From Cyanidioschyzon merolae (lineage: Eukaryota): a stretch of 64,000 nt of DNA. The stretch lies in NCBI GenBank assembly GCA_000091205.1, contig AP006491.2, one strand, 5' to 3'. The notes beneath the pieces were generated by a model. That model did not search any database. It was not told where the DNA came from and saw only the letters and a program-made list of their open reading frames with translations. A program made the position numbers and the translations under genes. Shown here piece after piece: positions 38,914 to 54,783 of the stretch; within the stretch, counting starts at the first letter, position 1, and each line of letters opens with the position of its first letter.

Positions 38914-41900
38914 ATGCCAAGAGCCAGTCGAGGTGCAAACGGCAAAGCAGCTGAAGCGCTGCGGAGGCTTGCTGAAGCTCGTGAAAGCGGTAGGCGACCA
39001 AGTGAGGACTATGAGCTCGAAGAACCTGAGCGGGTATACGAGGCGGTGGACGAGGACACGTATCGATCGCGTCGGGCGGAAGAACGCCACCAGGTACGAA
39101 GCTTCATTGTCAAGGACCGGGCAACGTTCTCGGGCAGCTCCGAGGACGAAGACTGCTTGACGTATTCAGAGGAGGAGAGTGAAGGGCGAACAAGCGCTCG
39201 ATCACGTGTGCGCGCGGGACGACAGCGAAGCAGGGAGCGAGGCTCGAGTGCTACAGTGGCGCGGAACCTGCTCAAACCGACTCAAACTCGTTTCCTGGGG
39301 CAGCCTACAGTACCGGGGACGCTCAAAATTGAGCAAGCCGCTCTGGCTACTTCCGTTGCGTCACATGGGCGTGTGCAGTCAGCCTCAAGCTCTGGTCGAC
39401 GCAAAAGCTTGGTTGACGAACTGCTCGCTGAGCAAGATGAATGGGCAGCGGGCGAGGAACGCACGTTTGTCGCCTCGAGAGCGCGCGGAAACGATAGTCG
39501 CCCGCTAGATGCACAGCCAAATCAGCATCCGACATCGGGTGTGATATCGGCACCACGACGGCGACGTGGCGCCCAAGATCTGCTCGTGGAGAGTGGCCCG
39601 CAGATCCCACTCGAAAGCCGTTCAGATACGGATCACGATCACGAGCATGATCCGAGAACACCCAGTACCCAAGAAAAATCTTGGACGACTCTCCAGGCTG
39701 CAAATGCGAGCGATTCTGAAAATGACATGGAGGTGAACGACGTCGACGCCGACCTCCTCCTGGATCGCGTACTTGAACTCGAGGCCGAATACGCCCACGA
39801 GGCAACTGAAAACGGAGTAACTGCCGTAGAAGGCGATCTTCCTGGTGATCGCGTTCCCGCGCTAACCTTTTTCGCGCTCGACATGCAGGAAATTTTGGAC
39901 AAAGTCTTCGTGTTCGGTCGAGCTCTGTTGCCGGAAACAAGCTCTTCAACTGCGGTTTGTGTTCAAGTTTGCGGCATTGAAAGGGAAATCTTCTTCTTGC
40001 CTCGAATGTACGTAGACTGCCCCGACGACGAGCAGGCAACACCACGTCCCTACCCGATCCTTGCGTCCGAGCAGGAGCCAAGATTGGCCCCCATCTCAGA
40101 AGGCATTGCTTTCTCCTGTGTCTACGAGGAAGTCAAGTCAGTTTTGCTGGCTCGCGGCATCACCGAATTCACCGCCCGTCGCGAGGAACGTTGTTTCCTT
40201 ACGAACCAGATCGATCGTCGCCGGGCGGAAGTAACATCGTGTTTGCGTGTGCGATACCCGGCAAAGTATCGAGCTTTGGAAACTGCTCTCGAGGGCCAGA
40301 CTTTCTCCCAAATCGTTGGTTCAAGAAATTCACCGCTAGAGAATTTCATACTTGAGCGATGCGTGCCAGGTCCGTGTTGGGTACAAGTCTCGAACGCAAG
40401 CCGCGTCACTGGGATATCATCATGTCGTTGGAGCCTTAACGTGGACTCGCCAGCTCAGTTCAGAGTGCTCGCGGCGGAGGAGATTCCAGCGTCGCAACCG
40501 CCAGGGCTGCGCGTACTGACGTTTTCCTTGCGCACGATCGCTGAGGCATCTCCTACATCGTTCGAAATAGCGATAATCTGCGCGACTGTATTCGATAATG
40601 TGCCCACGAACCGGAACTTGGGCGAAACGCCGCACCCTTCCATGCAGTTTGGCATCGTTCGGCCGCCAGCGCATGAGGCATTCCCTTTCGGTTTCGAGCG
40701 AATGATTTCGGGAAGAAGAATTCTTCGCGAGCGGAACGAGCTCGCCATGATCGAGCGCTTTCTCCGCGAAATCAATCAGCTAGATCCAGATGTCATCATT
40801 TGCCACCAGCTCCTCACGAGCCAATTCGATGTGTTCTTGAAAAGAATGCGTGAGCTGCGTCTCCGTGACTGGTGGCAGCTCGGCCGGCTTGTTCAGCGAC
40901 GTCCTTTGCAAGATTTTCGAAGTCATATGCAAGCATCTGGTCGCGGTTTGAATCCTGCACTGGCTCGGCAAATTTTCGCCGGGCGGCTCTTATGCGACAC
41001 AGAGGAGGCGGCTCGAGAGTACTTGCACAAGGAGAAGGACTATGGGCTCCGTGTCCTCTGCCGGGCGCTCCTCGGCTCCTACAAAAGCGCCGCGACGGGT
41101 AGCGATGGTGAATGGTCAGCCCAAGCCATGCGTTCAGTTTATCGCGAGGCGAAGCATCTCGTGGGGGCCATCGACTCATGTCTGGAAGACGCCAAGCTCA
41201 GCTTCCTCTTGGCAGACCGACTGGCGGTCATTCCGCTTACGAATGAGCTCGCCAGCATATGTGGATACCCTTGGGGTAAGACGATGCTTGGAAATCGAGC
41301 TGAGCGCATTGAGTATCTGCTGCTGCACGAGATCCACCGTTCTGGCAAGTACGTTGCGCCTGATCGGAGTTCGGGCCAAAGAGCCAGCATCCGACCGAAA
41401 CGCCCAAGCTTCGACCCGACAGCGCAGGCAAGCGCCGACAAAAGGCTGGACGCTGCGAGAACTCCCTCCAGTACACAGAGAGGTGCCTCAACACCGACCA
41501 CAACTGAGGGCAGCGCACTCGAGCTTGCGTCTTCAGCCAAACGGCGCAAACCTGCCTACCAAGGGGGATATGTGCTCGAGCCAAAGCGCGGTCTTTACGG
41601 GACTTGCGTTCTGCAACTCGACTTTAGCTCCCTCTACCCGTCCATCATTCAGGAATACAACATAGACTTTACCACCGTCACATTGGACTCTGAGGGAAAC
41701 GCCCTCTTGCCCAAACATAGCAACGAGCTGGGCATTCTTCCAACCGTGCTTCGGAGGCTCGTTCAGCGACGAAGACAGGTTCGAGAAGCGGCTCGCAACG
41801 AGTCGAGCCCTGTCCGCCAGCAACAGCTGCACACCAGGCAGCTAGCGCTCAAACTGACAGCGAACGCCCTGTATGGTTGTTTGGGATACGTCCACTCGCG

Positions 41901-43497
41901 TTTCCACATTCGCGAACTTGCGGAACTGATCACACGAACTGGACGGGAAACGCTTGAGCGTACAGTAGAGCTCGCGGAACAAGTTTTGCTTCGAAAGCTC
42001 GACGACCTGGTTGCAGCGTCAAACGTACCGGATCGTGCTTCTGGGGTCCAGCCTCGCGTTATCTACGGCGATACGGACTCGATCTTCATCGACAGCGGGA
42101 TTCCTTTTTCCTCTGATTCCGTGCAGCGTATCATGGAGCTGGGCCATGCTATTCGCCGCGAGGTTAATAAGCAGTACCATACTTTGGAAATTGAAATCGA
42201 AGCGTTGTATGTGCGTATGTTATTACTGAACAAGAAGAAATATGCCGCGCTCAAGTACCAGATCGATACCGGCTCATTCAGCAAGGAGGTCAAAGGCATC
42301 GAAGTCGTTCGACACGACTGGTGCGCGCTCGTCGCCGCAGCGGGCAACTTTGCCCTGGATCAGATTTTGGACCCAACCTGTGTGGCCACGGAAGCGAAAG
42401 ACCGCATTTGCAAGTACTTGTCGGAGCTGGCGACGCGCATGCGGCAAGGACGCGTCGACCTAGATCAGTTCGTTATCACCAAACAGCTGACCCATGACCC
42501 GGATGCCTACGATGATGCAGCGATCCAGCCGCATGTGCAGGTCGCCCTGCGTCGGCGAGAACGTGGATACGTCGTCGCAGCTGGCACCTTTATCCAGTAC
42601 GTTGTGTGCCGGGAGCCGTGCGATACTCGGCTTCGACGAGGAGAGGCAATCGATGGTGCTCGCGCACCCATCGATACCGTTGCACGTCGGGCGTGCCATC
42701 CGGATGAGTACCGCGAAGCACAGGGCATGCTGCATCTCGATATCGACTGGTATTTAGAGAATCAGTTGCATGCGGTGCTGAGGCGTATAACGGAGTCTGT
42801 TCCAGGCCTTGATGCCGCTGCACTGGCGTGCTGTCTTGGTCTGAACGCCCAACCGTTCCTGCGAGCTCGAATCATGGCCGACCAGATGACACCCGGAAGC
42901 ACCGCGTCGAGTCAAGACCAACGTCGCAAGCTTCTTGTCGAGGATCTTTTTGGTGCGTTGTCCGATCCGCTCGTGGTGCCGTTCACAGCCCAGTGTCCCG
43001 CTTGTGATCAGCGGTTTCCCATCGATTTCCGCTTCGAAGGCGAACACATCAGACCGGCCATTCATATTGATCGTTGCCCACGACCAGCTTGCGGTGCCGT
43101 CATCCCAGTCACCGTGCTTAAGCAGCAGTTAATCGTGTTCATTCGCCACGTGATCCGTCGGTACTACACGAGTCCCGAACTGTTGAGAGGCCATGCTTGT
43201 CGAGCCGCCGACGACGACTGGCTCGCGCACCAAGACTCGGATGTTACGTCGTTCCCGTTGTCAAGTGAATCGCTTCTCCAGGAGGGAATCTCTGAACGCG
43301 AATATGGCGAACGCACGCTCTATGCGCAATTGGAGCGATTACAACTTGCCTTGGGCAAAAATTCCGACGATCCAGATGCGGAGAAGCCGTCCGGGGGTTC
43401 AGCATCCACAGCTGCTGTGGCGTTGCAAGCCCTTGTTCAGTCGTATCTAGATGCATGCGCGTACCAGTACGTTGAGCTCAGAGCCTTGTTCTCCTGA
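38914..43497 (+). CDS. POLA1: DNA polymerase alpha catalytic subunit (family B). The ORF track starts at 38881 with TTG; the first ATG is at 38914.
   Basis: Pol-alpha motifs: region II LQLDFSSLYPSIIQEYNIDFTTV; region III/motif B KLTANALYGCLGY; region I/motif C VIYGDTDSIFI. The C-terminal Cys-rich zinc modules (CPACDQRF...CPRPACG) are typical of Pol alpha. Confidence 0.92.
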   Translation: MPRASRGANGKAAEALRRLAEARESGRRPSEDYELEEPERVYEAVDEDTYRSRRAEERHQVRSFIVKDRATFSGSSEDEDCLTYSEEESEGRTSARSRVRAGRQRSRERGSSATVARNLLKPTQTRFLGQPTVPGTLKIEQAALATSVASHGRVQSASSSGRRKSLVDELLAEQDEWAAGEERTFVASRARGNDSRPLDAQPNQHPTSGVISAPRRRRGAQDLLVESGPQIPLESRSDTDHDHEHDPRTPSTQEKSWTTLQAANASDSENDMEVNDVDADLLLDRVLELEAEYAHEATENGVTAVEGDLPGDRVPALTFFALDMQEILDKVFVFGRALLPETSSSTAVCVQVCGIEREIFFLPRMYVDCPDDEQATPRPYPILASEQEPRLAPISEGIAFSCVYEEVKSVLLARGITEFTARREERCFLTNQIDRRRAEVTSCLRVRYPAKYRALETALEGQTFSQIVGSRNSPLENFILERCVPGPCWVQVSNASRVTGISSCRWSLNVDSPAQFRVLAAEEIPASQPPGLRVLTFSLRTIAEASPTSFEIAIICATVFDNVPTNRNLGETPHPSMQFGIVRPPAHEAFPFGFERMISGRRILRERNELAMIERFLREINQLDPDVIICHQLLTSQFDVFLKRMRELRLRDWWQLGRLVQRRPLQDFRSHMQASGRGLNPALARQIFAGRLLCDTEEAAREYLHKEKDYGLRVLCRALLGSYKSAATGSDGEWSAQAMRSVYREAKHLVGAIDSCLEDAKLSFLLADRLAVIPLTNELASICGYPWGKTMLGNRAERIEYLLLHEIHRSGKYVAPDRSSGQRASIRPKRPSFDPTAQASADKRLDAARTPSSTQRGASTPTTTEGSALELASSAKRRKPAYQGGYVLEPKRGLYGTCVLQLDFSSLYPSIIQEYNIDFTTVTLDSEGNALLPKHSNELGILPTVLRRLVQRRRQVREAARNESSPVRQQQLHTRQLALKLTANALYGCLGYVHSRFHIRELAELITRTGRETLERTVELAEQVLLRKLDDLVAASNVPDRASGVQPRVIYGDTDSIFIDSGIPFSSDSVQRIMELGHAIRREVNKQYHTLEIEIEALYVRMLLLNKKKYAALKYQIDTGSFSKEVKGIEVVRHDWCALVAAAGNFALDQILDPTCVATEAKDRICKYLSELATRMRQGRVDLDQFVITKQLTHDPDAYDDAAIQPHVQVALRRRERGYVVAAGTFIQYVVCREPCDTRLRRGEAIDGARAPIDTVARRACHPDEYREAQGMLHLDIDWYLENQLHAVLRRITESVPGLDAAALACCLGLNAQPFLRARIMADQMTPGSTASSQDQRRKLLVEDLFGALSDPLVVPFTAQCPACDQRFPIDFRFEGEHIRPAIHIDRCPRPACGAVIPVTVLKQQLIVFIRHVIRRYYTSPELLRGHACRAADDDWLAHQDSDVTSFPLSSESLLQEGISEREYGERTLYAQLERLQLALGKNSDDPDAEKPSGGSASTAAVALQALVQSYLDACAYQYVELRALFS

Positions 43498-43644: not shown

Positions 43645-44817
43645 CTACCTCGAGAAGCTGATTCCCTCGCTCTCGAGGAACCGCATTAACAGCTGGGTCG
43701 ATACGCTGACGTGCTTTGCTGCCAGCGTTTCCATAATTGCTCGTAACGGCACGCAGTCAAGTAAAAGAATACGCTCGTAGAGTGCAGAATCGGCTTTGAT
43801 TGCATCGCGAATGCTTCGGAAGCGGATGCTGTCTCGGTCGAGAGAAGCAGGCACTGCAGCATCTGGGGCAGTCGATGGCGCCTCGGTCGCACTGCAGTCC
43901 GATATCGGGTTCTCGGTGTGCTCCAGCGAACTTGAATGGAGTGCCGCCTCAGTGCTCGCCTCGTGCCCAGAAAGGTCACTGGCGTCGTCGCAGAGGTCGA
44001 CAACCTCGACGGCGTCTTCAGGGCGTGTCGGGATCGTCTCCGTTGGAGCGGGTAGCGTGGCGCCTCCGGTACCAGTGCGGAGCATGTCCCGCCCGATTTG
44101 AAGCGCACCCGCCAGTTGTGTATAGCCATTTCGATACAGTTCTATATCCTCGCATGAATCACTGGCGCAAACAGTCTCACGCTCACATGACTCCTGTGCA
44201 CTGCATCCGTCGTGGTCGCTCGAGTAACGTGGCATCCGCCGCTTCTTCACGCACGCGAGCCGATCCAGTGCAGGTTCCTCGACAAAGCAAAGCGTTTGCT
44301 TTCGCCGCTTCTCGTTCTGTTTCCCCAGGTTTGCAAGGGAAATACGGTATGCAGGTGTACGTAGTGCTTCCCAGAGCCGTTCGGCGCTTGATCGCGGAAT
44401 CTTCAGAAGCTCCAGGTCCGGCTGTTTGAGCAGGAAGAGCCGCTCGAGCGTCAGCTTCTCGCTGACAAGCAGTTCTGCGTAGCGTGCGACACCGTGTGCA
44501 GCCAGAAAGCGTCTCAGTGGTCCAAAAAGTCGCTCTTTTTGAATGCGTCTTTTCAAAAGCTTTTTCTCTTCCAGGGCACGTAGACGTTCGAGATCTGCGC
44601 GAAAACTGCAGCGATCGACGTGACGCCAGCGCCAGTCGAGCGCCCACGAACCAATCTCACGTCCACAGAACGGACACTTGACCTCCTCGTTACCAGAAAC
44701 TTCCTCGGTTTCGGAAACTGATGCAGGTGCTGTAGTAGGACAACAGGTTTCCAAGTGGTGCAGCTGCTCGTAGAGGCACAGAGAATCCAGCGGTGTCTGG
44801 CACTTGCTACAGTGCAT
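43645..44817 (-). CDS. SLX4-like structure-specific endonuclease scaffold (UBZ4 finger plus C-terminal Slx1-binding-like domain). Tentative.
   Basis: ATG at 44817. UBZ4-type finger VKCPFCGREIGSWALDWRWRHVDRCS (CPxC...HVDxC). The C-terminal tail ...ALYERILLLDCVPLRAIMETLAAKHVSVSTQLLMRFLESEGISF resembles the conserved SLX4 C-terminal domain, which ends ...FLDSxGITF. Confidence 0.4.
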   Translation of the reverse strand: MHCSKCQTPLDSLCLYEQLHHLETCCPTTAPASVSETEEVSGNEEVKCPFCGREIGSWALDWRWRHVDRCSFRADLERLRALEEKKLLKRRIQKERLFGPLRRFLAAHGVARYAELLVSEKLTLERLFLLKQPDLELLKIPRSSAERLWEALRTPAYRISLANLGKQNEKRRKQTLCFVEEPALDRLACVKKRRMPRYSSDHDGCSAQESCERETVCASDSCEDIELYRNGYTQLAGALQIGRDMLRTGTGGATLPAPTETIPTRPEDAVEVVDLCDDASDLSGHEASTEAALHSSSLEHTENPISDCSATEAPSTAPDAAVPASLDRDSIRFRSIRDAIKADSALYERILLLDCVPLRAIMETLAAKHVSVSTQLLMRFLESEGISFSR

Positions 44818-44914: not shown

Positions 44915-46196
44915 AGTCGTTGCGGTATCTCCGAAAAGGAAGCAGACAGCGCCCAGATTCTGAACGGAAAACGAGTGACGCCGCTTAGTTTTTCCAGAGC
45001 TCATAATTCACGGGAGTCAGGTTCCATGGACAAGAGGAGTCATCCCCACAAATTGAATGACGGCATCAGGACCCGTTTTTGCGTGCCGAGCACCGTGCCG
45101 TGCAGAGGCGAATGCTCCGCACGCGGTTTTCAGAGCGTCCATGTGCGTGCGGACGACACTCAGCAAGCGAGCATGAGCATAATCATAAATATAAATAAGC
45201 TTGAGCACGAGCACGAGCACGAGCATAATTCTAAATATAGACATAAGCACGAGCATGAGCATGAGCATAATCATAAATATAAATAGAAACATAAGCACGA
45301 GCACGAGCATAATTCTAAATATAGACATAAGCATGAGCGTGAGCATGAGCATAATCATAAATATAAATAGAAACATAAGCACGAGCACGAGCACGAGCAA
45401 AAGCATGAGCATAATCATAAATATAAATAAGCTTGAGCACGAGCTTGAGCTTGCACTGAGGCCGCCAACGATTTCGGTTGAACGGCGGCAAGCAGCGTGC
45501 ACTCTCCTACTCTTTCACTGACTTGGCAACGTAACTGACCGATACTGCGCGTCGCGTGGTATGGTGGTGGTCGTGTATTGCGCGGCATGTTCTGTAGCAC
45601 GCAATGGTTGCCCGCCTGCTCGCTCGATGGAGGCGCGCAACAAGTGGAGGCACCGATTCTGCTCGATTCTCGTCGATGCGCTCGGGACGGCATGTGTGCA
45701 CGACGAGCACGAGTACACGCTGGAAAATATAGAGAGGAAGAGTGTGGAACGTTGATGGGCGCACGAGGTCTTGTGCGGGAAGTTTATCGAACGTCAGATG
45801 CCGAGCCAATCGCAGGCGTGATGCTCGCTATGATGCATCTCCATGAGCAAGGAGGCACGCGAGCACCCTCTGCACCACCGAGACGTCAACGCCTCGAAAC
45901 AAGTCTGGAAATGTCTCGCGCTTGGGGACCATCCAACGACTGTGTGCTCGATGGAGCCTCCTGAGGGAGTCACTCTGCGCGCAGTGCGAGATTTGTGGTG
46001 AAACGCTGAGGAGCTCTGATGAACAAGTCCGTGACCTGGAGAAAGGAGTTTTTTGATTCTCGCCTGGAGCAGAGCGGTAGTATTGAACTGTGCAGGAATG
46101 CAGAGAGCTCGGTATACCGCATATTCAAGACCGGAACGGTTCTCCTGGGCAATTGTCGAAAGATAATGGTGGTCTGTTTGTCGATATCACCGAGTA
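44915..46196. repeat. Dispersed repeat family B, copy 2 (~1.28 kb), with the minisatellite expanded (~45170..45455, ~5 units of ~55-60 bp).
   Basis: Same evidence as copy 1. The extra ~174 bp relative to copy 1 lies entirely in the AT-rich/(CACGAG)n tandem array. Confidence 0.85.
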
Positions 46197-47222
46197 TAGC
46201 CTTATACCATTCGTGGACGCTGACTAGATCCATTCCTCACTTACCATAAACAATACCTGCCCAAGTCCAGCAGTATTCCATGCCACCTGCGGCGCGTTGA
46301 ACCACAAGATACGCGGCATTTGGCGTCGTGTCAACAATCGTGCGCCCACAGAGAGCTGATTTCGACCTCTCCAATGTTTCGGAGCGGTGCCGATGCCGGA
46401 GCAGATGACAGCGCTCTCGGCTGCGGTGCTTGTCCACAAGGCATCACCCTGGCACTCTTCCTGGTACGCGTGATCCGAATAGAAGGCTACAAAGGATCAA
46501 ATGCGCTGGCGATGTTCTGCATTGCTTCCTGTCCACCTGCGTTCGATGCAGCGAAAAGTGCAGAAGCGCATCGCGCTGTCACTACGTTCGGTGCATTCGC
46601 CTGTATCCGGACACATGGGCACAAGATTTCGTCTGATGGTGGATATTTCGCAAATATCGATACATGCGTTCATGAGTGGTTTGCGAGCTCACCGCGCACG
46701 CATTCGCTAGCGGACTTTGCGGTGTTCACACGCAAGAAGCGCCCTGAGTGTCAAACATGCACGTACTGAACGCGATCTCAGGGTGCTCTCTAAGCGTACA
46801 CAAATGATCATCTTTGCGATCTTGTGACGGAATTGGGATGTTGACGCGGACGCCTGCCCTCTGGAGGCATCAAAACAGCGGTGCTCGTTTCATACAGGTA
46901 ATGATTGCAACAGAATAGCCCATACACCGTCGTAATTCCCACCTGCGGCTTTCACCGCGTAATAGGTTACAGATTCGAACAGCGAGATCGCCACTGCCTG
47001 GTATCGGTGCGGATTGAATGTTTTCAACAAGAGCGCACTCGCTGTTCGAGCTCCCGCGGAAAATCCTCGATCTGGATTCCGCGAAGTTGACCAAGCGCTT
47101 TGAGCGAATCGGCTGGAGACAAGCTCAAGTGCTCATTGATGAGCCCGTCTGCCTCTCTGTGGCACAAGATAACTGCACCGACAGCGTATCGTTCCGCGTA
47201 GGAGACTCTTTCCACGAAATAG

Positions 47223-49607
47223 ATGGTGCTTATTTCGTTCGTGCTCCACAGGCAGCGAACGACACGTCATGAGAAGAAACTGCAGCTGGATGAACGCCAG
47301 CGCTGCAGTCGGCGCGTATCGACCGCTGTCGTGGCCGGGCGCCGCTGCCTGCCGGCGCTGTGCGGCGCTGACGCGAAGATCGCTTTTCTTTCCGGTACTC
47401 AGGAGCACGACGTGGTGTGTGTTGGGTGGATGGGAGCTTCATGGACGCTCTGGCGGGCGGAATACCTGTCCGATAACCGACTTCACTTTGGATTTGTGCC
47501 TGTTGGCTTCCCTTGCCGTTCCCGGCAGCGATGCGTCGGGAAGAGTCTGCGCCAGTGCGGTGCTTTGCGAACGCGACAGCGGCTGCTGCAGCCGCCACCG
47601 CCGCTCGACTACACCAGCGTTGCTGCGCTGGTTCACTCTGTAAAGCAGCGGACTGTTCCCGGTAGACTGGAAACTGTTCTACAACCGGACGCTCGAACCC
47701 TTTACCTTGGCCTGAGAACGCTCGAGATCCCACGGGTGTGGTTGACACTGTCGTGGCACCCGCAGCTCGCGCGTCTAACTGCGGTTCCGGAGCGCAAGGG
47801 CTCCGGCAACCAGAACGACGCACTACGGTATGGTGTGCCCAAGGCGTTCCAAGCCGAGAGCATGCCGTATTCGGTGTCGAACGTGCTGCGCTCAAGAGAG
47901 TTCCGAGACTTGATTCTCTGCGATTGTCGCGCCCCACTTGCTTTTGAGCGCCTCGTGGAGTTCGACTTGGCACGACGACCTGGAGAAGAGCCCATTTTGC
48001 GCATAATTCTGGAACTTGTTGGAACTAGAAGCAACCTCGTTGTACTTGGTGGCATGGATCGACTGGGCGGTCGCGATTCTGGCGATATCCTCGCGTGCGG
48101 TTACCAGCTGGCTGAGGGCAAGAGTGATCGGCCGTTTCGAGTCGGCGATCGTTACGTGTATCCTGCAACAGTACAGGCGAGTTCATCACGTATGCCATCG
48201 GTTTATCGGGACGAGGAGCCGTGGCGCGAGCGACTTGTGGCGACTGCGAGCGGGGATCTCATCTGGCGGGGCCTCACGCGAGCCTTCGTCGGACTCAGTA
48301 GTGCACTGGCGCAGGATATGGTTTCCAGTGCGCTCGGGTCGGATGCACTCGAGCGTTGCACTGAAGAGCTTGAGGCGTCTGAGTGGCACGCGCTGTTTTC
48401 AAACTGGCTTGCGTGGTTAAGTGCGTTGGAGCGTCACGACTTTGCTCCTCATCGAAAAGTTGGCGGCGCTCTTGCAGAAAAAGCATCGGGCCGCACCTCT
48501 TACTCTATGGTGCGTTGGCCAAATGAGGCTCCGTTTGTTCCCACTGATGCGTCTGATCTCATCGCAGACCTGTTCGATCGCTATGAGGTTTGCGTCTACG
48601 CGGAATCTATGGGGAAACGACTGCGCCGAGAACTCGCCCCAAAGCTGAAGCGGGTGCGCAATGCTCTCGCCCAGTATACGAATCGACTCGCTGAAGCGGA
48701 GCACGCTGACCAGTTGCGGGCACGTGGAGACTTGCTCATGGCGTGGCAGCATCTGTGGCAACCTGGCGAGACCTCCCTGAGACCTCCGTCCGAGGCCGCA
48801 TCGGCGTTCGAGTCATGGAAGGGAGACGGCCTGAACGCGGTGTTGGAGATCGCTCCGGGGCGGACGCCCGTGGAAGAGGCTCAAGCGTGTTACCAGCGCA
48901 GTCGCAAACTGCGTCGGGCGGTGCAGGCGCTCGCTCCACTGGAACAGGCCGCGCGCAGAGAGCTTGAACACCTGGAACATTTAGAGTACATGATTTCCGT
49001 AGCGCTTGACTACGGGCAGGATCCAGACTTGGAGCTGCTTCAAGAAGTTTTCAATGAATTACACCTTGCGCAGGCACCAAAATCCGGCAAGTCTGTACCG
49101 TCCAAGCGTGGCTCGCCGACCCGTCGTGACGCAAAGGCTAAGGGCGCATCGAACGCCCGTCTGCTAGACCGTTGCATCCAGTTGCAAGCTGCAACCGAAG
49201 GTTCGAGAATCCTGTGTGGCAAGAGCCAGCACCAGAATGATTACTTGACATTTCGGGTTGCAACGGAGAGTGATCTGTGGTTCCATGCGCAGGGATGTGC
49301 GGGATCGCATTGTATTCTGCGAATGCCGCCCGGATTTGTAGCCTCCACGGACGATGTGCAGCTCGCCAGCGACGTCGCTGCCTACTTTAGCAAGGCACGA
49401 CTCCAAAAATCCGTGCCGGTCGTTTACACTCAGATCAAGTACGTGCGCAGAGCCGATGCCCCGGGTACTGTGAAATATGCAAATGAACGAGTCATTTTCG
49501 GTGAGCCGGATCGAGCTCGGGCGTTCGTGGAGGAACGCAGCGCCATTGAGTTGAGCTCTGCGAGCTCTTCAGCGTCCAGCGCTGTTGAGTCCGGAGACGA
49601 AACGTGA
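47223..49607 (+). CDS. Bacterial-type ribosome-quality-control protein (RqcH/FbpA/Tae2 family, NFACT-N plus coiled coil plus NFACT-R) with a ~140-aa N-terminal extension that may be an organellar transit peptide.
   Basis: ATG at 47223. The NFACT-N-like segment ...VPGRLETVLQPDARTLYLGLRT...LTLSWHPQLARLTAV...ILRIILELVGTRSNLVVLGG parallels FbpA GGRIQKIHQP...LLLSAHP..RIQLT...ELMGRHSNIIL. The C-terminal NFACT-R/DUF814 segment is WFHAQGCAGSHCILRMP...VAAYFSKA.... Confidence 0.6.
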   Translation: MVLISFVLHRQRTTRHEKKLQLDERQRCSRRVSTAVVAGRRCLPALCGADAKIAFLSGTQEHDVVCVGWMGASWTLWRAEYLSDNRLHFGFVPVGFPCRSRQRCVGKSLRQCGALRTRQRLLQPPPPLDYTSVAALVHSVKQRTVPGRLETVLQPDARTLYLGLRTLEIPRVWLTLSWHPQLARLTAVPERKGSGNQNDALRYGVPKAFQAESMPYSVSNVLRSREFRDLILCDCRAPLAFERLVEFDLARRPGEEPILRIILELVGTRSNLVVLGGMDRLGGRDSGDILACGYQLAEGKSDRPFRVGDRYVYPATVQASSSRMPSVYRDEEPWRERLVATASGDLIWRGLTRAFVGLSSALAQDMVSSALGSDALERCTEELEASEWHALFSNWLAWLSALERHDFAPHRKVGGALAEKASGRTSYSMVRWPNEAPFVPTDASDLIADLFDRYEVCVYAESMGKRLRRELAPKLKRVRNALAQYTNRLAEAEHADQLRARGDLLMAWQHLWQPGETSLRPPSEAASAFESWKGDGLNAVLEIAPGRTPVEEAQACYQRSRKLRRAVQALAPLEQAARRELEHLEHLEYMISVALDYGQDPDLELLQEVFNELHLAQAPKSGKSVPSKRGSPTRRDAKAKGASNARLLDRCIQLQAATEGSRILCGKSQHQNDYLTFRVATESDLWFHAQGCAGSHCILRMPPGFVASTDDVQLASDVAAYFSKARLQKSVPVVYTQIKYVRRADAPGTVKYANERVIFGEPDRARAFVEERSAIELSSASSSASSAVESGDET

Positions 49608-50898
49608 CCAGCGTAGCCAGATGCTTATCGTCAGGTCAGGAAAAGTGCATGTCGATGTGTGTCTGTTGAGAACCAGTGACTGGGCGTGGTATCGTGAGCT
49701 CAGCATGACCAACTCTTTCGGCAGATGCTGCACGAGGCGCATCGATACAAAAACTGTTCGGGTCCATCAGAAGCATAAGGAAGCTGACTGGCACTCTCCT
49801 TTTAGTGAATTCGTGGGAGACTGGGTGTCAAATGATCTCTGGGTGACCGTGGGACGTATCAGCGAGAAAGCACGTGACTTTGCCACTGGTTTCTCTGCTT
49901 CCAGCGTTCAACGCGGAACCCGCGAAAGGGTTTTATTTCGGATACCGCCGCATCTAGGCGTCAGCGGCTGCACGGATGTAATAGTCCCCCCGCCAGCGTC
50001 GTGCCCCATGCTTCGCACGCTTTGGCGCTGTGCTGAAATCCACGCTCTGTCGTTGCCCTTGTCGTTTGCGAAAAGCCCATCTATTGGACGAGGCCTGTTC
50101 ATCCTGGCAATGATGTTTCAGGAGCCAATCTTGATGTGCGGGTGCAGGAGCGCGCCGCCACTTCATGAAACGCGCCTGGCATGTCGACTGCGATGCACCG
50201 GCATCAGCGTAGCGAGATCGGCGATAGATATGCACGCTGGGGCACCCAGCGCGACATACCACCGACTGATGCAACACCAGCGCAGAGGTTACGAGTTTAA
50301 CGCAAAGCCCGGCACAGAAGACGTTCACTATGATACTCGGTACAGGGGGGGGGGCGCGTGCCTAAACCAACGAGTTTCCCCTCAGTGGTGCGACGCGCGC
50401 GTCTGGGGTCTCTTCACCGGAAGCGCATTGCCCCGCCTAAACCTGCCGTCCATCGTTCACGCAATGGATCAACCTGCCGTTCACGCATCACTGCCGCGAG
50501 CGCGTGCATCCATGCATGCAATCTGCTGTCCATCTTTTACCCCATCGATCAATATCGCCGTGCACGCATGCGTCGTCGCTTTGCATCACCGGGCGCGCGC
50601 ACGAAGCAGATGCTCCAAATGTGCATCATCTTCGATCGATGCGTGTGCATTGTGCGGACACGTTGCGTAGATCGCGATCGGCAGCGCGCGGCTGCGGCTG
50701 CGGCTGCGGCTGCGGCTGCGGCGGCCGTGCGGAGATACGGCGGTATCCAGGCTGGCGCAGCGTGTCTGCGTGTGCGAAACGCGCACCATCCCGAGGCGAA
50801 CTGTCAGACAAACGCGGTGACGTCGACTCAAGGAACCGGGCTGTGAGTATAGCGCTCTTTTGTGCTCTGGTATAGTAGGCGCAGACTTGGCTTAGCGA

Positions 50899-52509
50899 AT
50901 GCGTGAGCGCCTCCCCAGTCCAGGCCGTTCGGGAACGCCTGCGCTGCAGTCTACGCGTGGGCACGATTCGCTGCAGCGGCTGCGCGTTCGGCCGGCGAGT
51001 TTTTCACAAACTAGCAGTGCAGCCGACGTACCAACTAGTCCTTTAGTGCTACCACCACTCGTTGGTGGCATGCAGCAAGGTGTTTCGGATTTTGGAAGAG
51101 CCTCAACTGGTCGGGGCCCTCTGTCTAGTGACGCGCCGCCTCCAAGCAATCGAACCGTCGGAATAGGCGGATCCGAAGGGGTACAGAAAGGCGATGACGA
51201 GGGCCAGGACGGCTTTTTCATAGGTAACAACCTGTTTCTCGCAAAAGGCCTCACAACAGCCGCCGCTTTGGCGGACGAACAACTGACGGGCGCGGCGCCT
51301 AGCCGGCTGGGCCCCAGCGGAAACGGCGAAAATAACCCACTGACGCTGAGACGAACGCTTTCCTGTATAGAGATAGACCCGTTTGGAAAAGCACAAGTAC
51401 GCGTTTACACTCGAGAGGAACTCATTCGAGAGCTGCGTTCAGAGTCCGTTACCGGGAACACTGCGGTCGACGTGGTCGAGCTTGCCTTCATCCGAGGCGA
51501 TGCCCGCGAAGAGTCGCAAATGTCTGGCGCGCTGGATCTGGCGCCGGTGACTGGTGGAAATCGACGCACCAAGTCATCAAAATCGAAGAAGAGGACCAAG
51601 TACGGCCCGATCCAGTCTCGCGATCTACGGTTGTTGGACCCGGCGTTCAGTGTGGAGCCGGCCTTGCATGTACGCGATCACGTCATTCTCGCGGTTTTCG
51701 ATAATCATATCCGAGCTGCAATCCAGTCGCATCGCCTGTTTATTTTTGATCACGAGTCCAAAAGAGCGCGACGGGCTACTGAGTTCGTTGTGCAACGACT
51801 CTCCCGAGTGTCAGCCGAGGAGGCGGTGCCCTTTGAGTTCGTTGCGCTGGAGGCGCTTCTCATGGCCACTTGTGCGGACATAGAATGGATGATGAGAAAC
51901 GTGGAGCCATTAATTGAGCGTGAACTAGGAGTTCTTTCAAGAGATCTGCGACGGAGTAATATCGAACGGCTCCGGGTCGATGAGCGCAGGCTCTCTCTTC
52001 TGCTTTCCCGAGCGCGGAATTTCGAGCACCTGCTCGAGGACATCCTCGACGAGGACGAGGACATGAGCCACATGTACTTGACCGAAATGCGTTACCATCC
52101 GGAAAAGTATCGTCTTCCTACCGATCACGAAGATGTGGAGCTGTTGCTCGAGAACGCGCTGCAGACGGTGCAGAGTCAGGTTCGTCGATTGGAGCTGCTC
52201 GATGCCGGCATCAATAACCTTGAGGAGATTCTGGAAATCAAACTGGATATATCTCAGAATCGCATCTGGTCGTTTAATATTTTCGTGCACCTTTGCGTGG
52301 CGACATTCTTCTTAGCTGCAATACCTGCTGATTTTTTCGGAATGAACTTGCAAATACCGCCTGACAAGGATCCGAATGTATTCTGGCCGTGGTTGCTGGT
52401 TTTTGGATTGAATATGGGCTTGGCGGTGGCCTTCTTTTCGCTTGCCATGCTGTTTCTTAAGCGACGACGATTGCTCTTTGGTCTCTTTAAGCGCCATCCG
52501 AGTGACTAG
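50899..52509 (+). CDS. Mrs2/CorA-family Mg2+ transporter, paralog 1 (GMN type).
   Basis: ATG at 50899. Two C-terminal TM helices flank the signature FFGMNLQ (VHLCVATFFLAAIPADFFGMNLQIPP...LLVFGLNMGLAVAFFSLAMLFL). The upstream helical domain carries the DEDMSHMYLTEMR block shared with the neighbouring paralog. Confidence 0.75.
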   Translation: MRERLPSPGRSGTPALQSTRGHDSLQRLRVRPASFSQTSSAADVPTSPLVLPPLVGGMQQGVSDFGRASTGRGPLSSDAPPPSNRTVGIGGSEGVQKGDDEGQDGFFIGNNLFLAKGLTTAAALADEQLTGAAPSRLGPSGNGENNPLTLRRTLSCIEIDPFGKAQVRVYTREELIRELRSESVTGNTAVDVVELAFIRGDAREESQMSGALDLAPVTGGNRRTKSSKSKKRTKYGPIQSRDLRLLDPAFSVEPALHVRDHVILAVFDNHIRAAIQSHRLFIFDHESKRARRATEFVVQRLSRVSAEEAVPFEFVALEALLMATCADIEWMMRNVEPLIERELGVLSRDLRRSNIERLRVDERRLSLLLSRARNFEHLLEDILDEDEDMSHMYLTEMRYHPEKYRLPTDHEDVELLLENALQTVQSQVRRLELLDAGINNLEEILEIKLDISQNRIWSFNIFVHLCVATFFLAAIPADFFGMNLQIPPDKDPNVFWPWLLVFGLNMGLAVAFFSLAMLFLKRRRLLFGLFKRHPSD

Positions 52510-52668: not shown

Positions 52669-54783
52669 TCATACGGTAAGGATACCAACCCGCCGCGCCC
52701 ACCAAAACATACACAGAATCGTGAGCGGCACCGTGAATGCCGTGATTGCCACAAAGCCGATGAACCACGAAGCATTGGTGCCGTAGATCGGCAGTTGCAG
52801 ATTCATGCTAAAGAATCGATTCACAACACCAGCGCCAGCGAAGACACAGGTCAGGACGGTCATTAACACACTGATGCGCAAAAGGCGATTTCGCATCGAG
52901 TCCAGTTGCAGATCCACTAAACCCTCGGTATCATCGATGGTGGCACCGAGGAGCCGTGCTCGGCCCGCCAGATAGTCCAGCACCCGCAGGTACGACTCGA
53001 GCAGCTCCTCCACCTGTGTGTGGGCTTTTGTCGGGCGCTCAGTGTCGGGGTGCTTCCGCATTTCGGTTAAATACATTCGAGCCATATCTTCGTCCTCGCT
53101 GAGCAGGTCTTGGAGCGCGTCTCGCACTCCGTCTACTCGAGATGAAAAGTTGCTCAACATTTGCTTCAAATAGAGCATTTCTTCCAGCTTCCTGCCGCTG
53201 ATCTTGTGTGTCAACTCATTCAGGAGGCGCGTGAGACTCGGCTCGATACACGCGAGATCTCGTTCGAGTGCGACGCACACCTCGATCAAAACGGATTCCA
53301 GCGCGTGAAGTTCAAAGGGAATCTCCTGTTCCTCATCACTCTGGGCAGCGATGAGCCGCTCTTCGATGGATCGGGCACTCTGACGCACACTCTGATCATT
53401 GGGATTGAAGAGCAACATATGATCAGCGAAAATGACGGCGCGCAGATGCGCAAGACTCACAATGATCACATGTCGCCGTACGAGAATAACGGGCCGCGGT
53501 TTTGTGGTCGGATGGATTTGTCTCAGGTCGCGGCTTTGAAGGATACCACGCAGCTCAGCCTGGAGCTTTCTGCGTTCCTTCTTGCGCTGTCGCCATACCG
53601 CGTGATGAAGCGTCTCTTCGGACTGGGAGTCTGCTGGAATGCAGTTGGCGCTGCTCGGTGCACGGATCTGATCGTTCGCCCGCGCTGCCGCCAGAATCTC
53701 TGTTGTGGTGATTTTCTCAACCGTGGCATGTCCGTTAAACCCAAACCGGAAACAAAGCAATGTGTTCAGGGCGCGTTTTGGTTTCTTTTGCTCGGCAGGA
53801 GTGTGTTGTCCAAATCCGGCGTATGGTGTTGTCGCGATGGGTTCCGGCGCCTGGCCCCGAGCACGCCCGCTAGGGCGCAACGTCGGTGGCTGCGGAAACT
53901 CCTCATCGTGGCTGTCGCGGTGCTCAGGAGACACGTTTTCCGCACTCGAGGGCAGCGCGCCTTGTCTACGCTCACTTACAGGCGAATCCTCCGCACGGCC
54001 AGAATCTCTGTACAAGTCCCGCTCGTTCGTTGTAAGCGCTCCGTGCAGGTTCGTCTCGTGTTCGGGTCCGGAACTACTGCTAGGTTCAGCGTTGTCTGGG
54101 CGTTCGCGTGTGTGCAAGCTATCCGGGGTCGCGCGTTGCGTCGCACGCTGCAACAAAAGTTGGTTGCGAATCGACTGCTGAAAGAGTTCCAGAGTCTGGT
54201 TTCGAGATCGGAGGCCCTCGAGCGCACCGCTCGAAAGAGAACGTCGGAAATTCGTTTCCTTCGACGAGTACAGTCCCGACTCTGGAGCAGGCTCGAAAGG
54301 TTCCGCGGCAACTGGTGGCGGGCCAGTCTCGAGCAGGGGCGAAGAACCCGCCACCGCCACCGTCACCGCGGACTCCCGAGCGTTCGCCTCGCTCTCGGAG
54401 CAAGGTGGCGCCGGGTGCAAAATCGTCTCATCGTCCAGGCCTTCAGAAGCGTTTAGCGGTAGAATGGGAACTCCACCGTCGCTTTCAGAGTCTGACGCTT
54501 CCATGTTGCCGAGGCGCGAGCAGCGTGTGCCCGAATGCCAACCTCGATGCGCCAGCAGCCTTGCATAGCCGCATTTGGAGCAGGGGCAATGGAGCGGGCG
54601 CGAGGGCCGGGCATGTAGACGAAGCTGCATATTTTGGGACTCTGTGGACAGGGTAGCATACAGCTGATCGTTCTGCTGCGGCACGACAGCGTTGCTGGAC
54701 TTGTGAGCACTGGGCCTTAGGCAAACAGCGCTATGCGCATGCACGTGGGTGCACAGCACCGCAAACCCATGAAAAGACTCCAT
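52669..54783 (-). CDS. Mrs2/CorA-family transporter, paralog 2, with the signature altered to SMN.
   Basis: ATG at 54783. C-terminal ...LMTVLTCVFAGAGVVNRFFSMNLQLPIYGTNASWFIGFVAITAFTVPLTIL. It is co-linear with paralog 1 (DEDMARMYLTEMR; LHALESVLIEV ~ FVALEALLMAT). The Ser codon AGC was read directly on the minus strand at ~52805..52807. The true start may be an internal ATG, since the N-terminus is low complexity. Confidence 0.65.
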   Translation of the reverse strand: MESFHGFAVLCTHVHAHSAVCLRPSAHKSSNAVVPQQNDQLYATLSTESQNMQLRLHARPSRPLHCPCSKCGYARLLAHRGWHSGTRCSRLGNMEASDSESDGGVPILPLNASEGLDDETILHPAPPCSESEANARESAVTVAVAGSSPLLETGPPPVAAEPFEPAPESGLYSSKETNFRRSLSSGALEGLRSRNQTLELFQQSIRNQLLLQRATQRATPDSLHTRERPDNAEPSSSSGPEHETNLHGALTTNERDLYRDSGRAEDSPVSERRQGALPSSAENVSPEHRDSHDEEFPQPPTLRPSGRARGQAPEPIATTPYAGFGQHTPAEQKKPKRALNTLLCFRFGFNGHATVEKITTTEILAAARANDQIRAPSSANCIPADSQSEETLHHAVWRQRKKERRKLQAELRGILQSRDLRQIHPTTKPRPVILVRRHVIIVSLAHLRAVIFADHMLLFNPNDQSVRQSARSIEERLIAAQSDEEQEIPFELHALESVLIEVCVALERDLACIEPSLTRLLNELTHKISGRKLEEMLYLKQMLSNFSSRVDGVRDALQDLLSEDEDMARMYLTEMRKHPDTERPTKAHTQVEELLESYLRVLDYLAGRARLLGATIDDTEGLVDLQLDSMRNRLLRISVLMTVLTCVFAGAGVVNRFFSMNLQLPIYGTNASWFIGFVAITAFTVPLTILCMFWWARRVGILTV

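What the first reader, a model, noticed from the sequence alone, without database searches (positions are those of the whole stretch)
47223..49607. Bacterial-architecture RqcH/FbpA (NFACT-N ... NFACT-R) with a long basic, Cys/Arg-rich N-terminal extension
Eukaryotic cytosolic NEMF/Rqc2 proteins are larger and have a different linker. This ORF has the compact bacterial RqcH layout preceded by ~140 residues lacking acidic residues (MVLISFVLHRQRTTRHEKK...), which is consistent with an organellar transit peptide. That implies Ala-tailing-type ribosome rescue in an organelle. Together with nuclear ccmE, this also gives a phylogenetic hint toward a plastid-bearing lineage.
Basis: partly seen in the sequence, partly recalled or inferred. 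Interest (0 to 1): 0.5.

Follow-up and report, generated by a model that had tools for sequence, protein, structure and literature searches.

The report
Red-algal plastid RqcH ribosome-rescue gene
This nuclear gene of the red alga Cyanidioschyzon merolae encodes a cyanobacterial-type RqcH ribosome-rescue factor behind a short import-type leader, which suggests that algal chloroplasts still tag stalled proteins with alanine tails; the step is unidentified in plant plastids and no such gene was found in Arabidopsis.

Summary
The ORF at 47223-49607 (+) is real. It is 100% identical to C. merolae 10D BAM80056.1, annotated as "probable fibronectin-binding protein". It has the bacterial RqcH layout (NFACT-N, HhH, CC-M, NFACT-R, no NFACT-C).

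- **Family:** sequence, profile and predicted fold all match B. subtilis RqcH far better than NEMF or Rqc2.
- **Origin:** its closest bacterial relatives are cyanobacteria. One clade holds every named cyanobacterium and every alga sampled and excludes all 20 Bacillota (200/200 bootstraps).
- **Homologs:** they occur in red algae, green algae (Chlamydomonas) and algae with complex red plastids. All carry acid-poor N-terminal extensions, and 11 of 47 begin like a signal peptide.
- **Correction 1:** the extension is not free of acidic residues (8 D/E in 128).
- **Correction 2:** its first 69 codons are probably not translated. ATG1 is ATT in 6 of 7 environmental contigs, and those codons diverge like intergenic DNA. 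The start is most likely M70 (47430), which leaves a 56-59 aa disordered leader, similar to the orthologs (51-60 aa).
- **Caveat:** published TargetP2 calls the annotated model "noTP".

Most likely reading: a plastid-imported RqcH that adds alanine tails on stalled plastid 50S subunits. Localisation and activity are untested. It is a new member of a known kind and is moderately interesting.

The parts
47223..49607 (+). Annotated ORF (794 aa plus stop). It equals C. merolae 10D BAM80056.1 / XP_005536342.1, 'probable fibronectin-binding protein'. The locus tag is probably CMI179C.
   Evidence: ORF list. 100% identity to P0016. The locus tag is inferred from gene order next to CMI180C.
47220..47225 (+). 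In-frame TAG immediately followed by the annotated start ATG1. ATG1 is polymorphic: it is ATT in 6 of 7 environmental contigs.
47223..47429 (+). Codons 1-69. Most likely a 5' leader or non-coding DNA rather than part of the protein.
   Evidence: 11 variable sites in 207 nt among 8 sequences, against 1 in the next 177 nt. Divergence from L084 is 3.9%, against 0.5% for the rest of the ORF, p = 9e-5. Out-of-frame ATGs lie at 47269 and 47290.
47430..47597 (+). Probable true start (M70) and presequence, aa 70-125: MGASWTLWRAEYLSDNRLHFGFVPVGFPCRSRQRCVGKSLRQCGALRTRQRLLQPP. It is acid-poor (1 D and 1 E in aa 70-128; net charge +8). Its first 45 residues (aa 70-114) are predicted disordered.
   Evidence: Composition. 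AF2 pLDDT is below 50 for model residues 1-45 and no helix is predicted. The length matches the ortholog extensions of 59, 60 and 51 aa, and two of those are bounded by an in-frame stop 6 codons upstream. The motif HFGFVPVGF / CAFLTIIPNF / MAFLGTVPFF is shared.
47598..48134 (+). NFACT-N lobe (aa 126-304), beta-rich. It includes a Cyanidiales-specific insertion at about aa 190-215.
   Evidence: Pfam NFACT_N. Alignments A1 and A3. AF2 model.
47946..47951 (+). E242-R243, the counterpart of the B. subtilis RqcH D97/R98 'DR' tRNA(Ala)-recognition motif. R is invariant. E replaces D in most of the aligned cyanobacterial and algal sequences.
   Evidence: Residue mapping. Invariant R243. Motif function from PMC8373112 and bioRxiv 10.1101/2020.09.03.281279.
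48012..48020 (+). E264-L265-V266, the counterpart of the 'EIM' motif (E121/I122/M123). E is invariant.
48213..48434 (+). Helix-hairpin-helix region (aa 331-404).
   Evidence: AF2 helices H262-335 in model numbering, which is ORF numbering minus 69. Architecture as described.
48549..49010 (+). CC-M: two long antiparallel helices (aa 443-492 and 549-596) around a small middle domain.
   Evidence: AF2 helices H374-423 and H480-527. Full-length profile match to RqcH.
49194..49466 (+). NFACT-R domain (Pfam, aa 658-748).
49272..49286 (+). D684-L-W686-F-H688, the intact 'DWH' motif (B. subtilis D482/W484/H486) that RqcH needs to bind the 50S subunit.
   Evidence: Mapping. W686 and H688 are invariant in 82 sequences. 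Function.
49518..49604 (+). C-terminal Ser/acid-rich tail (aa 766-794). It is mostly unmatched in the four other Cyanidiales sequences aligned.

Best explanation
The gene is the nuclear copy of a cyanobacterial rqcH that moved to the host nucleus after the primary plastid endosymbiosis.

- **Shown:** it is an intact RqcH under purifying selection. It has the bacterial domain order and the DR-like, EIM-like and DWH motifs. It sits in a conserved nuclear neighbourhood (PolA, Slx4, RqcH, MRS2) in four Cyanidiales.
- **Inferred, start:** translation begins at M70 (47430), giving a 725-aa precursor.
- **Inferred, import:** the disordered, acid-poor N-terminal 56-59 residues act as a plastid transit peptide and are removed after import.
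- **Inferred by homology to B. subtilis RqcH, binding:** in the stroma the mature protein binds plastid 50S subunits that still hold peptidyl-tRNA after a stalled 70S ribosome has been split. The NFACT-R domain (DWH motif) and the CC-M domain would make the 50S contacts.
- **Inferred by homology, tailing:** the NFACT-N domain (E242/R243, E264) selects plastid tRNA-Ala. Template-free addition of a C-terminal alanine tail follows.
- **Inferred, partners and fate:** the S4-domain partner is probably YlmH-like, as in cyanobacteria. The tail then marks the truncated protein for stromal Clp proteolysis.
For: **Identity and integrity**
- The ORF is identical to C. merolae 10D BAM80056.1.
- Against three environmental strains, codons 129-794 show 3-5 non-synonymous and 6 synonymous differences.
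- Nuclear neighbours are DNA polymerase alpha, Slx4, MRS2, MutL and RHD3.
- Synteny is conserved in Cyanidiococcus-like strains and in Cyanidium.

**RqcH type**
- Pfam finds NFACT_N plus NFACT-R and no NFACT-C.
- The family profile hits RqcH at 3e-182 over its full length, NEMF at 2e-33 and Rqc2 at 1e-12.
- The AF2 model has pLDDT 87.5 and pTM 0.83. Its top Foldseek hits are ribosome-bound B. subtilis RqcH chains, 8s1u_H at 4e-30 and 7aqc_R at 3e-29.

**Cyanobacterial descent**
- The best non-Cyanidiales representatives out of 1.84e9 proteins are red algae, Vitrella and cyanobacteria.
- In the GTDB scan the strong full-length matches (E from 1e-59 to 1e-87, 29-34% identity) are cyanobacteria, apart from one Sericytochromatia MAG, one unclassified MAG and one contig labelled Rhizobium. 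Bacillota follow at E of 1e-37 or weaker.
- In the NJ tree, all 25 named cyanobacteria and all algal sequences form one clade that excludes all 20 Bacillota, with 200/200 bootstraps.
- A profile built only from algal sequences retrieves cyanobacteria at about 1e-160. The best named bacterium of another group scores 3e-95.

**Targeting**
- All 47 algal homologs carry 30-576 residues ahead of the domain, while most bacterial ones carry 3-4.
- The extensions have a median 3.6% D+E, against 12.0% in the mature parts. The value is lower in 46 of 47.
- Eleven begin with a signal-peptide-like hydrophobic stretch, including Vitrella and Mallomonas, as expected for complex plastids.
- Rhodophyte plastid transit peptides use an N-terminal F/W/Y/L motif (PMC2222254 and PMC12531127). 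The M70 leader begins MGASWTLW and contains HFGFVPVGF.

**Start at M70:**

**Cyanobacterial precedent:** about half of cyanobacterial genomes, including Synechocystis 6803, encode RqcH plus YlmH without RqcP (bioRxiv 10.1101/2024.03.03.583159).
Against: - No localisation, expression or activity data exist for this protein or for any algal homolog that I could find.
- Published TargetP2.0 output for the annotated model is noTP: CMI179C 0.966, with cTP 0.012 and mTP 0.021. CMI177C, the alternative assignment, is also noTP.
  - This was run on the ATG1 N-terminus, which I argue is not used.
  - TargetP recovers only 41% of known C. merolae plastid proteins.
- A leader of 56-59 aa is nearer the C. 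merolae mitochondrial mean (59 +/- 23) than the plastid mean (78 +/- 17).
- The DR motif reads ER and EIM reads ELV. These changes are conservative, but their effect on tRNA-Ala choice is untested.
- The partners (YlmH or RqcP, MutS2) and the protease that reads the tail were not looked for in this genome.
- In the NJ tree the algal sequences group together only weakly (52/200).
Confidence: 0.7

Rival explanations
1. The same cyanobacterial-type RqcH is imported into the mitochondrion, or into both organelles, and rescues mitoribosomal large subunits.
For: - The leader from M70 is 56-59 aa, at the mean length of C. merolae mitochondrial presequences.
- It is Arg-rich with net charge +8.
- A C. 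merolae plastid protein N-terminus has been shown to carry mitochondrial targeting information when taken alone (PMC11298712).
Against: - Descent is cyanobacterial, not alpha-proteobacterial.
- Homologs in complex-plastid algae start with signal peptides, which excludes mitochondria there.
- AF2 predicts no helix in the leader, whereas 75% of C. merolae mitochondrial presequences are helical.
- Aromatic residues lie near the N-terminus, as in rhodophyte plastid transit peptides.
Confidence: 0.1
2. In strain 10D the annotated ATG1 is used. The precursor is 794 aa with a 125-128 aa presequence.
For: - ATG1 is present in 10D and in one environmental contig, L092.
- The frame stays open across codons 1-69 in all 8 sequences, with no indels.
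- The region is basic and Cys/Arg-rich.
Against: - ATG1 is ATT in 6 of 7 environmental contigs. These strains keep the rest of the gene under constraint, so they must start at M70.
- Codons 1-69 diverge about 8-fold faster than the rest, with 5 non-synonymous and 3 synonymous changes.
- Ortholog extensions are 51-60 aa, and two are bounded by an upstream in-frame stop.
- TargetP2 gives noTP for the annotated N-terminus.
- A TAG lies directly before ATG1, so the ORF start is simply the first codon after a stop.
Confidence: 0.12
3. The protein stays in the cytosol. It would be either a bacterial-type RqcH acquired by horizontal transfer that acts on cytosolic ribosomes, or the alga's only NFACT protein.
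For: - TargetP2 gives noTP for the annotated model.
- I did not verify that C. merolae has a separate NEMF/Rqc2 gene.
- Cyanidiophyceae are known for bacterial gene acquisitions (my own knowledge).
Against: - The protein lacks NFACT-C.
- Its closest relatives are specifically cyanobacteria, and the family is shared by red algae, green algae and complex-plastid algae, not only Cyanidiales.
- No in-frame Met lies between M70 and M214, so a non-domain leader of at least 56 aa is obligatory.
- That leader is conserved within the species: 1 variable site in 177 nt.
Confidence: 0.04
4. It is a fibronectin-binding adhesin, as the database name says.
For: Only the inherited annotation ('probable fibronectin-binding protein') and the NCBIfam similarity to EfbA, which scores 114 bits against a cut-off of 1025.
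Against: - The FbpA/PavA 'adhesins' are the RqcH family. Their solved fragments match as parts of RqcH.
- RqcH is a ribosome-bound factor.
- The N-terminus does not look like a signal peptide: the maximum 12-residue hydropathy is 1.32, against at least 2.0 in the signal-peptide-like homologs.
Confidence: 0.01

Closest known systems
Bacillus subtilis RqcH (YloA), PDB 7AS8 / 7AQC / 8S1U
   Same: - Same domain order: NFACT-N, HhH, CC-M, NFACT-R, without NFACT-C.
- Full-length profile match at 3e-182 and the top structural matches.
- DWH motif intact. The R of DR and the E of EIM are invariant.
   Different: - About 20-23% identity.
- DR reads ER and EIM reads ELV.
- The mature part is about 100 aa longer because of insertions (aa ~190-215, ~276-290 and the linker ~620-655).
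- It is nuclear-encoded in a eukaryote and has an N-terminal leader.
- The partner (RqcP or YlmH) and the ClpXP link are unknown here.
Cyanobacterial RqcH (for example Geitlerinema PCC 9228, Thalassoporum PCC 7367, Synechocystis-type RqcH+YlmH systems)
   Same: - Closest bacterial relatives: 29-35% identity over the full length.
- Shared clade with 200/200 bootstraps.
- Shared PWERV and SWHPQxAR signatures.
   Different: - Cyanobacterial proteins start at MQPVDFTTL with no leader.
- The algal copy is nuclear, carries a presequence and has lineage-specific insertions.
Eukaryotic cytosolic NEMF / Rqc2 (Tae2, Caliban, Arabidopsis EMB1441)
   Same: Same superfamily and the same general job on the large subunit (CAT or Ala tailing). 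The NFACT-N, HhH and coiled-coil core is recognisably similar (NEMF 2e-33; Foldseek 9e-21).
   Different: - No NFACT-C.
- Much shorter: 725-794 aa, against 1038-1076 aa for yeast Rqc2 and human NEMF.
- Far weaker similarity than to RqcH.
- No expected link to Listerin and ubiquitin.
Plant plastid RQC as currently described (MutS2A/MutS2B, bioRxiv 10.1101/2025.09.02.673837)
   Same: It would act in the same compartment and pathway, downstream of ribosome splitting.
   Different: That study found no bacterial-type RqcH in Arabidopsis and calls the downstream players entirely uncharacterised. The algal gene is a candidate for the missing step, and it appears absent from at least that land plant.

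Membership tests
Bacterial RqcH (NEMF-family, bacterial architecture) | Domain order NFACT-N, 2x HhH, CC-M coiled coil, NFACT-R | tested here: met
   Pfam. Full-length profile alignment to RqcH residues 1-563. AF2 secondary-structure layout. Foldseek. Definition.
Bacterial RqcH (NEMF-family, bacterial architecture) | Absence of the archaeo-eukaryotic NFACT-C (DUF3441) domain | tested here: met
   No NFACT-C hit at E <= 0.01. The protein ends 46 aa after the Pfam NFACT-R match. Definitions.
Bacterial RqcH (NEMF-family, bacterial architecture) | DR motif (D97/R98), required for tRNA-Ala selection | tested here: inconclusive
   The query has E242-R243. R is invariant in 82 sequences, and E is the usual residue in the cyanobacterial and algal sequences aligned. 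The change is conservative, but its effect on specificity is untested.
Bacterial RqcH (NEMF-family, bacterial architecture) | EIM motif (E121/I122/M123) | tested here: inconclusive
   The query has E264-L265-V266. E is invariant, and the I-to-L and M-to-V changes are conservative.
Bacterial RqcH (NEMF-family, bacterial architecture) | DWH motif in NFACT-R, required for 50S binding | tested here: met
   D684, W686 and H688 are present. W and H are invariant and D is conserved in at least 90% of sequences.
Bacterial RqcH (NEMF-family, bacterial architecture) | Binds 50S-peptidyl-tRNA and drives poly-alanine tailing | not testable with these tools
   This needs pull-downs or cryo-EM and mass spectrometry of tails.
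Bacterial RqcH (NEMF-family, bacterial architecture) | S4-domain co-factor (RqcP or YlmH) in the same compartment | not tested
Cyanobacteria use YlmH.
Eukaryotic cytosolic NEMF/Rqc2 | NFACT-C domain, length of about 1000 aa, closest similarity to archaeo-eukaryotic members | tested here: not met
Nucleus-encoded plastid protein of endosymbiotic origin | Nuclear gene whose closest prokaryotic relatives are cyanobacteria | tested here: met
   Nuclear neighbours. Cyanobacterial affinity.
Nucleus-encoded plastid protein of endosymbiotic origin | Cleavable N-terminal transit peptide (acid-poor, unstructured, with an aromatic residue near the N-terminus in rhodophytes) | tested here: inconclusive
   A leader of 56-59 aa from M70 is present, acid-poor and disordered. 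The same holds for 46 of 47 homologs. However, published TargetP2 on the annotated ATG1 model gives noTP, and no predictor was run on the M70 model.
Nucleus-encoded plastid protein of endosymbiotic origin | Protein found in the plastid | not testable with these tools
   I found no localisation or proteomic record.

The most novel reading that the evidence does not exclude
- Alanine-tailing ribosome quality control is an ancestral plastid pathway. It was inherited from the cyanobacterial endosymbiont and is still run by a nucleus-encoded RqcH in red algae, green algae and complex red plastids.
- It has been lost in at least some land plants. That would explain why the step after MutS2 splitting has no known factor in Arabidopsis.
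- In algae the tail would have to be read by a stromal Clp system that differs from bacterial ClpXP, so there may be a new degron reader.
Probability: 0.5. Interest if true: 0.6.

Novelty: new member of a known kind. Interest (0 to 1): 0.45.

Why it matters
- RQC by C-terminal tailing is established for the eukaryotic cytosol and for bacteria, but not for any organelle.
- The only plastid RQC study I found (2025 preprint) identifies the splitting factor MutS2. It states that the downstream players are unknown and that Arabidopsis has no bacterial-type RqcH.
- A conserved cyanobacterial-type RqcH with targeting leaders across algae supplies a concrete candidate for that step. It also makes organellar Ala-tailing testable in tractable algae: C. 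merolae allows homologous recombination, and Chlamydomonas has CHLRE_14g627150v5.
- It flags a probable loss in land plants.
- It corrects two database points: the 'fibronectin-binding protein' name and, probably, the annotated start codon of the C. merolae gene.

Tried and rejected
1. **Word-indexed protein searches.** The search with the whole protein gave 7 hits. The search with a 48-sequence alignment gave 6, probably because low-complexity words crowded out real homologs. A search with trimmed algal sequences worked.
2. **GTDB scan.** The 11-sequence alignment worked.
3. **P0008 as evidence for M70.** The 725-aa gene call starting at M70 turned out to start there only because its contig ends there.
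4. **Kozak context.** ATG1 and M70 have the same -3 T and +4 G, so context does not discriminate between them.
5. **Literature on algal or plastid RqcH.** Searches for RqcH or NFACT with chloroplast, plastid, cyanobacteria or algae, for Cre14.g627150, and for Cyanidioschyzon with fibronectin-binding protein found no description of an algal or plastid RqcH. The 2014 NFACT survey does not mention it.
6. **HGT from non-cyanobacterial bacteria.** Rejected on the tree and the E-value gap.
7. **RNA features.** No Rfam family or tRNA was found in the window.
8. **Not achieved.**
   - I did not test whether land plants other than Arabidopsis lack the gene.
   - I did not search for C. merolae NEMF, YlmH or MutS2.
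   - The gene ID was assigned only by order next to CMI180C, not by a sequence match.
Full report
**What is there.** A single uninterrupted ORF runs from 47223 to 49607 on the + strand and encodes 794 aa.
- Its product is identical over all 794 residues to BAM80056.1 / XP_005536342.1, 'probable fibronectin-binding protein' of Cyanidioschyzon merolae 10D. The window is therefore a piece of a C. merolae nuclear chromosome.
- The neighbours are ordinary eukaryotic nuclear genes: DNA polymerase alpha at 38881-43497, Slx4 at 43645-44817 (-), two MRS2 genes, an M17 aminopeptidase, RHD3/Sey1 and MutL.
- The next ORF downstream (50899-52509) matches the published N-terminus of CMI180C. By gene order this ORF is CMI179C, or less likely CMI177C.

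**Family.**
- Pfam finds NFACT_N (aa 129-614, 8e-51) and NFACT-R_1 (aa 658-748, 7.7e-10), with no NFACT-C.
- The only solved relatives found by plain sequence search are B. subtilis RqcH and streptococcal FbpA fragments.
- A profile of 82 family members aligns to B. subtilis RqcH over its whole length at 3e-182. Human NEMF scores 2e-33 and yeast Rqc2 1e-12.
- An AlphaFold2 model of the M70-start protein is confident (pLDDT 87.5, pTM 0.83). It shows a beta-rich N lobe, a helical HhH region, two ~50-residue antiparallel helices around a small middle domain, and a C-terminal alpha/beta domain. This is the NFACT-N / HhH / CC-M / NFACT-R order described for RqcH.
- Foldseek ranks ribosome-bound RqcH chains first (4e-30 to 1e-25), ahead of NEMF (9e-21) and Rqc2 (1e-16).
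- The three motifs defined by mutagenesis in B. subtilis map as follows:
  - DR (D97/R98) maps to E242-R243. R is invariant, and E is the usual residue in the cyanobacterial and algal sequences aligned.
  - EIM maps to E264-L265-V266, with E invariant.
  - DWH (D482/W484/H486) maps to D684/W686/H688 and is intact.

**Origin.**
- A profile of the five Cyanidiales sequences was run against 1.84 billion representative proteins. It gave 10,616 hits.
- The best hits outside Cyanidiales are Porphyridium and Rhodosorus (red algae), Vitrella (a chromerid), an MMETSP alga, and then cyanobacteria (Thalassoporum PCC 7367, a Gloeobacterales MAG).
- In one genome per GTDB species, the strong full-length matches are cyanobacteria, apart from one Sericytochromatia MAG, one unclassified MAG and one contig labelled Rhizobium. 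They have E from 1e-59 to 1e-87 and 29-34% identity. Bacillota follow at E of 1e-37 or weaker.
- I built a neighbour-joining tree (175 sequences, 538 columns, 200 bootstraps). All 25 named cyanobacteria, all 8 named algal sequences and all 39 unnamed extension-bearing sequences fall in one clade. It excludes all 20 Bacillota and most (59 of 83) of the unnamed bacterial-length representatives, with 200/200 support. The algal sequences group together only weakly (52/200).
- As an independent check, a profile built only from 14 algal sequences retrieves cyanobacteria first (Geitlerinema PCC 9228 at 7.6e-166). The best named bacterium of another group (Anoxybacter) scores 3e-95.
- Further named members are Chlamydomonas CHLRE_14g627150v5, a pedinophyte and the synurophyte Mallomonas.
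- The gene therefore belongs to a family spread across primary and secondary algae and derived from the cyanobacterial endosymbiont.
- Gene order PolA, Slx4, RqcH, MRS2 is conserved in two Cyanidiococcus-like strains and in Cyanidium.

**The N-terminal extension.** Cyanobacterial proteins begin MQPVDFTTL, aligned to query residues 126-133.
- From ATG1 the extension is 125-128 aa. It is basic and Cys/Arg-rich but contains 8 acidic residues, so 'lacking acidic residues' is wrong.
- ATG1 follows an in-frame TAG directly.
- ATG1 is ATT in six of seven environmental C. merolae contigs, which represent four haplotypes.
- Among the eight sequences there are 11 variable sites in codons 1-69 (207 nt), 1 in codons 70-128 (177 nt) and 2 in the 72 nt upstream.
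- Against strain L084, divergence varies by region:

| Region | Divergence from L084 |
|---|---|
| Codons 1-69 | 3.9% (5 non-synonymous, 3 synonymous) |
| Codons 70-128 | 0.56% |
| Codons 129-794 | 0.50% |
| Flanking intergenic DNA | 1.4-2.1% |

  Codons 1-69 differ from the rest of the ORF at p = 9e-5 (Fisher). They do not differ significantly from intergenic DNA.
- The ATT strains keep the rest of the gene under constraint, so they must initiate at the next in-frame ATG, M70 (47430).
- Two out-of-frame ATGs at 47269 and 47290 open ORFs of 124 and 117 codons. They would intercept scanning ribosomes. The transcript start is therefore predicted between 47291 and 47429 (inference).
- From M70 the leader is 56-59 aa, like the orthologs (59, 60 and 51 aa). 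Two of those are bounded by a stop six codons upstream of their Met.
- The next in-frame Met is M214, inside the domain, so a leader cannot be avoided.

**Is the leader a plastid transit peptide?**

Evidence for:
- It has 1 D and 1 E in 59 residues and a net charge of +8.
- Its first 45 residues are predicted disordered, and no helix is predicted before the domain.
- It is strongly conserved within the species.
- It shares an F-x-F/L-x-x-P-x-F motif with Cyanidiococcus.
- Bulky aromatic residues lie near its N-terminus, the feature that marks rhodophyte and glaucophyte plastid precursors (PMC2222254, PMC12531127).
- Across the family, 46 of 47 extensions are poorer in acidic residues than their mature parts (median 3.6% against 12.0%).
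- Eleven extensions start with a signal-peptide-like hydrophobic stretch, some followed by F at the predicted cleavage site. This is the bipartite signal of complex red plastids and is incompatible with mitochondria.

Evidence against, or neutral:
- TargetP2.0 results published for all C. merolae ORFs give noTP for CMI179C (0.966) and for CMI177C. That run used the ATG1 N-terminus, and the same paper reports only 41% recall for known plastid proteins.
- The leader length sits at the mitochondrial mean.

I rate plastid targeting as likely, at about 0.8, but not shown.

**Mechanism proposed.** The steps below are inferred by homology to the B. subtilis RqcH structures and biochemistry and from the cyanobacterial distribution of partners.
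1. A stalled plastid 70S ribosome is split.
2. RqcH docks on the 50S-peptidyl-tRNA complex through the NFACT-R (DWH) and CC-M domains.
3. NFACT-N presents tRNA-Ala.
4. With an S4-domain partner, probably YlmH-like, the nascent chain is extended with alanines and then degraded.

None of these steps was tested here.

**Novelty.** The gene model is in public databases under a misleading name, and its homologs are labelled YloA or NFACT.
- I found no paper in the held library that describes an algal or plastid RqcH.
- The 2014 NFACT survey does not mention one.
- The 2025 preprint on plastid RQC reports no bacterial-type RqcH in Arabidopsis and calls the downstream players uncharacterised.

This is therefore a new member of a known family in a new compartment. 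It is not a new kind of system.

Noticed in passing
window 60673-61458 (+): Nuclear ccmE gene. Pfam CcmE scores 3.7e-28, with the domain at aa 141-244 and the KHDEKY haem-binding motif. About 140 residues precede the domain.
   Followed up: partly
window 30325-31293 (-): DUF3177 protein (1.7e-43), a family I recall as cyanobacterial/plastid. It carries about 96 aa ahead of the domain and may be another nucleus-encoded plastid protein in the same window.
   Followed up: no
window 50899-52509 (+) and 52669-54783 (-): Two MRS2-like Mg2+ transporter genes lie tail to tail (CMI180C and CMI181C). The published CMI181C N-terminus (MEASDSE...) is an internal Met of a longer ORF that stays open 94 codons further upstream. 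This is another case where ORF start and annotated start differ.
   Followed up: partly
window 45168-45420: Imperfect tandem repeat (period 42/84, about 5 copies, plus a CATAAG microsatellite) in the 2.4-kb Slx4-RqcH intergenic region.
   Followed up: no
window 24000-26000: Local GC peak (66.8% against about 55%) with long overlapping ORFs on both strands (24371-25531 +, 24795-25700 -, 25079-25846 -). The only hit is a sub-threshold V-SNARE_C match.
   Followed up: partly
window 49585-50670 (+): A 361-codon TTG-start ORF between RqcH and MRS2. It is called as a gene on metagenome contigs, but it has no Pfam hit and diverges like intergenic DNA (2.1-2.3%). It is probably not a gene.
   Followed up: partly
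P0006 (EukProt model of the Cyanidium caldarium ortholog; locus L090 4001-6139): The EukProt protein model is frameshifted after about 270 aa. The NCBI model P0004 reads through correctly.
   Followed up: no
P0032 (Vitrella), P0047, P0045, P0048 (Mallomonas): Homologs from complex-plastid algae begin with a hydrophobic signal-peptide-like stretch. In P0047 and P0045 an F appears to follow the likely cleavage point (...HISHA|FRL, ...QISEP|FNN), as in ASAFAP-type bipartite plastid signals.
   Followed up: partly
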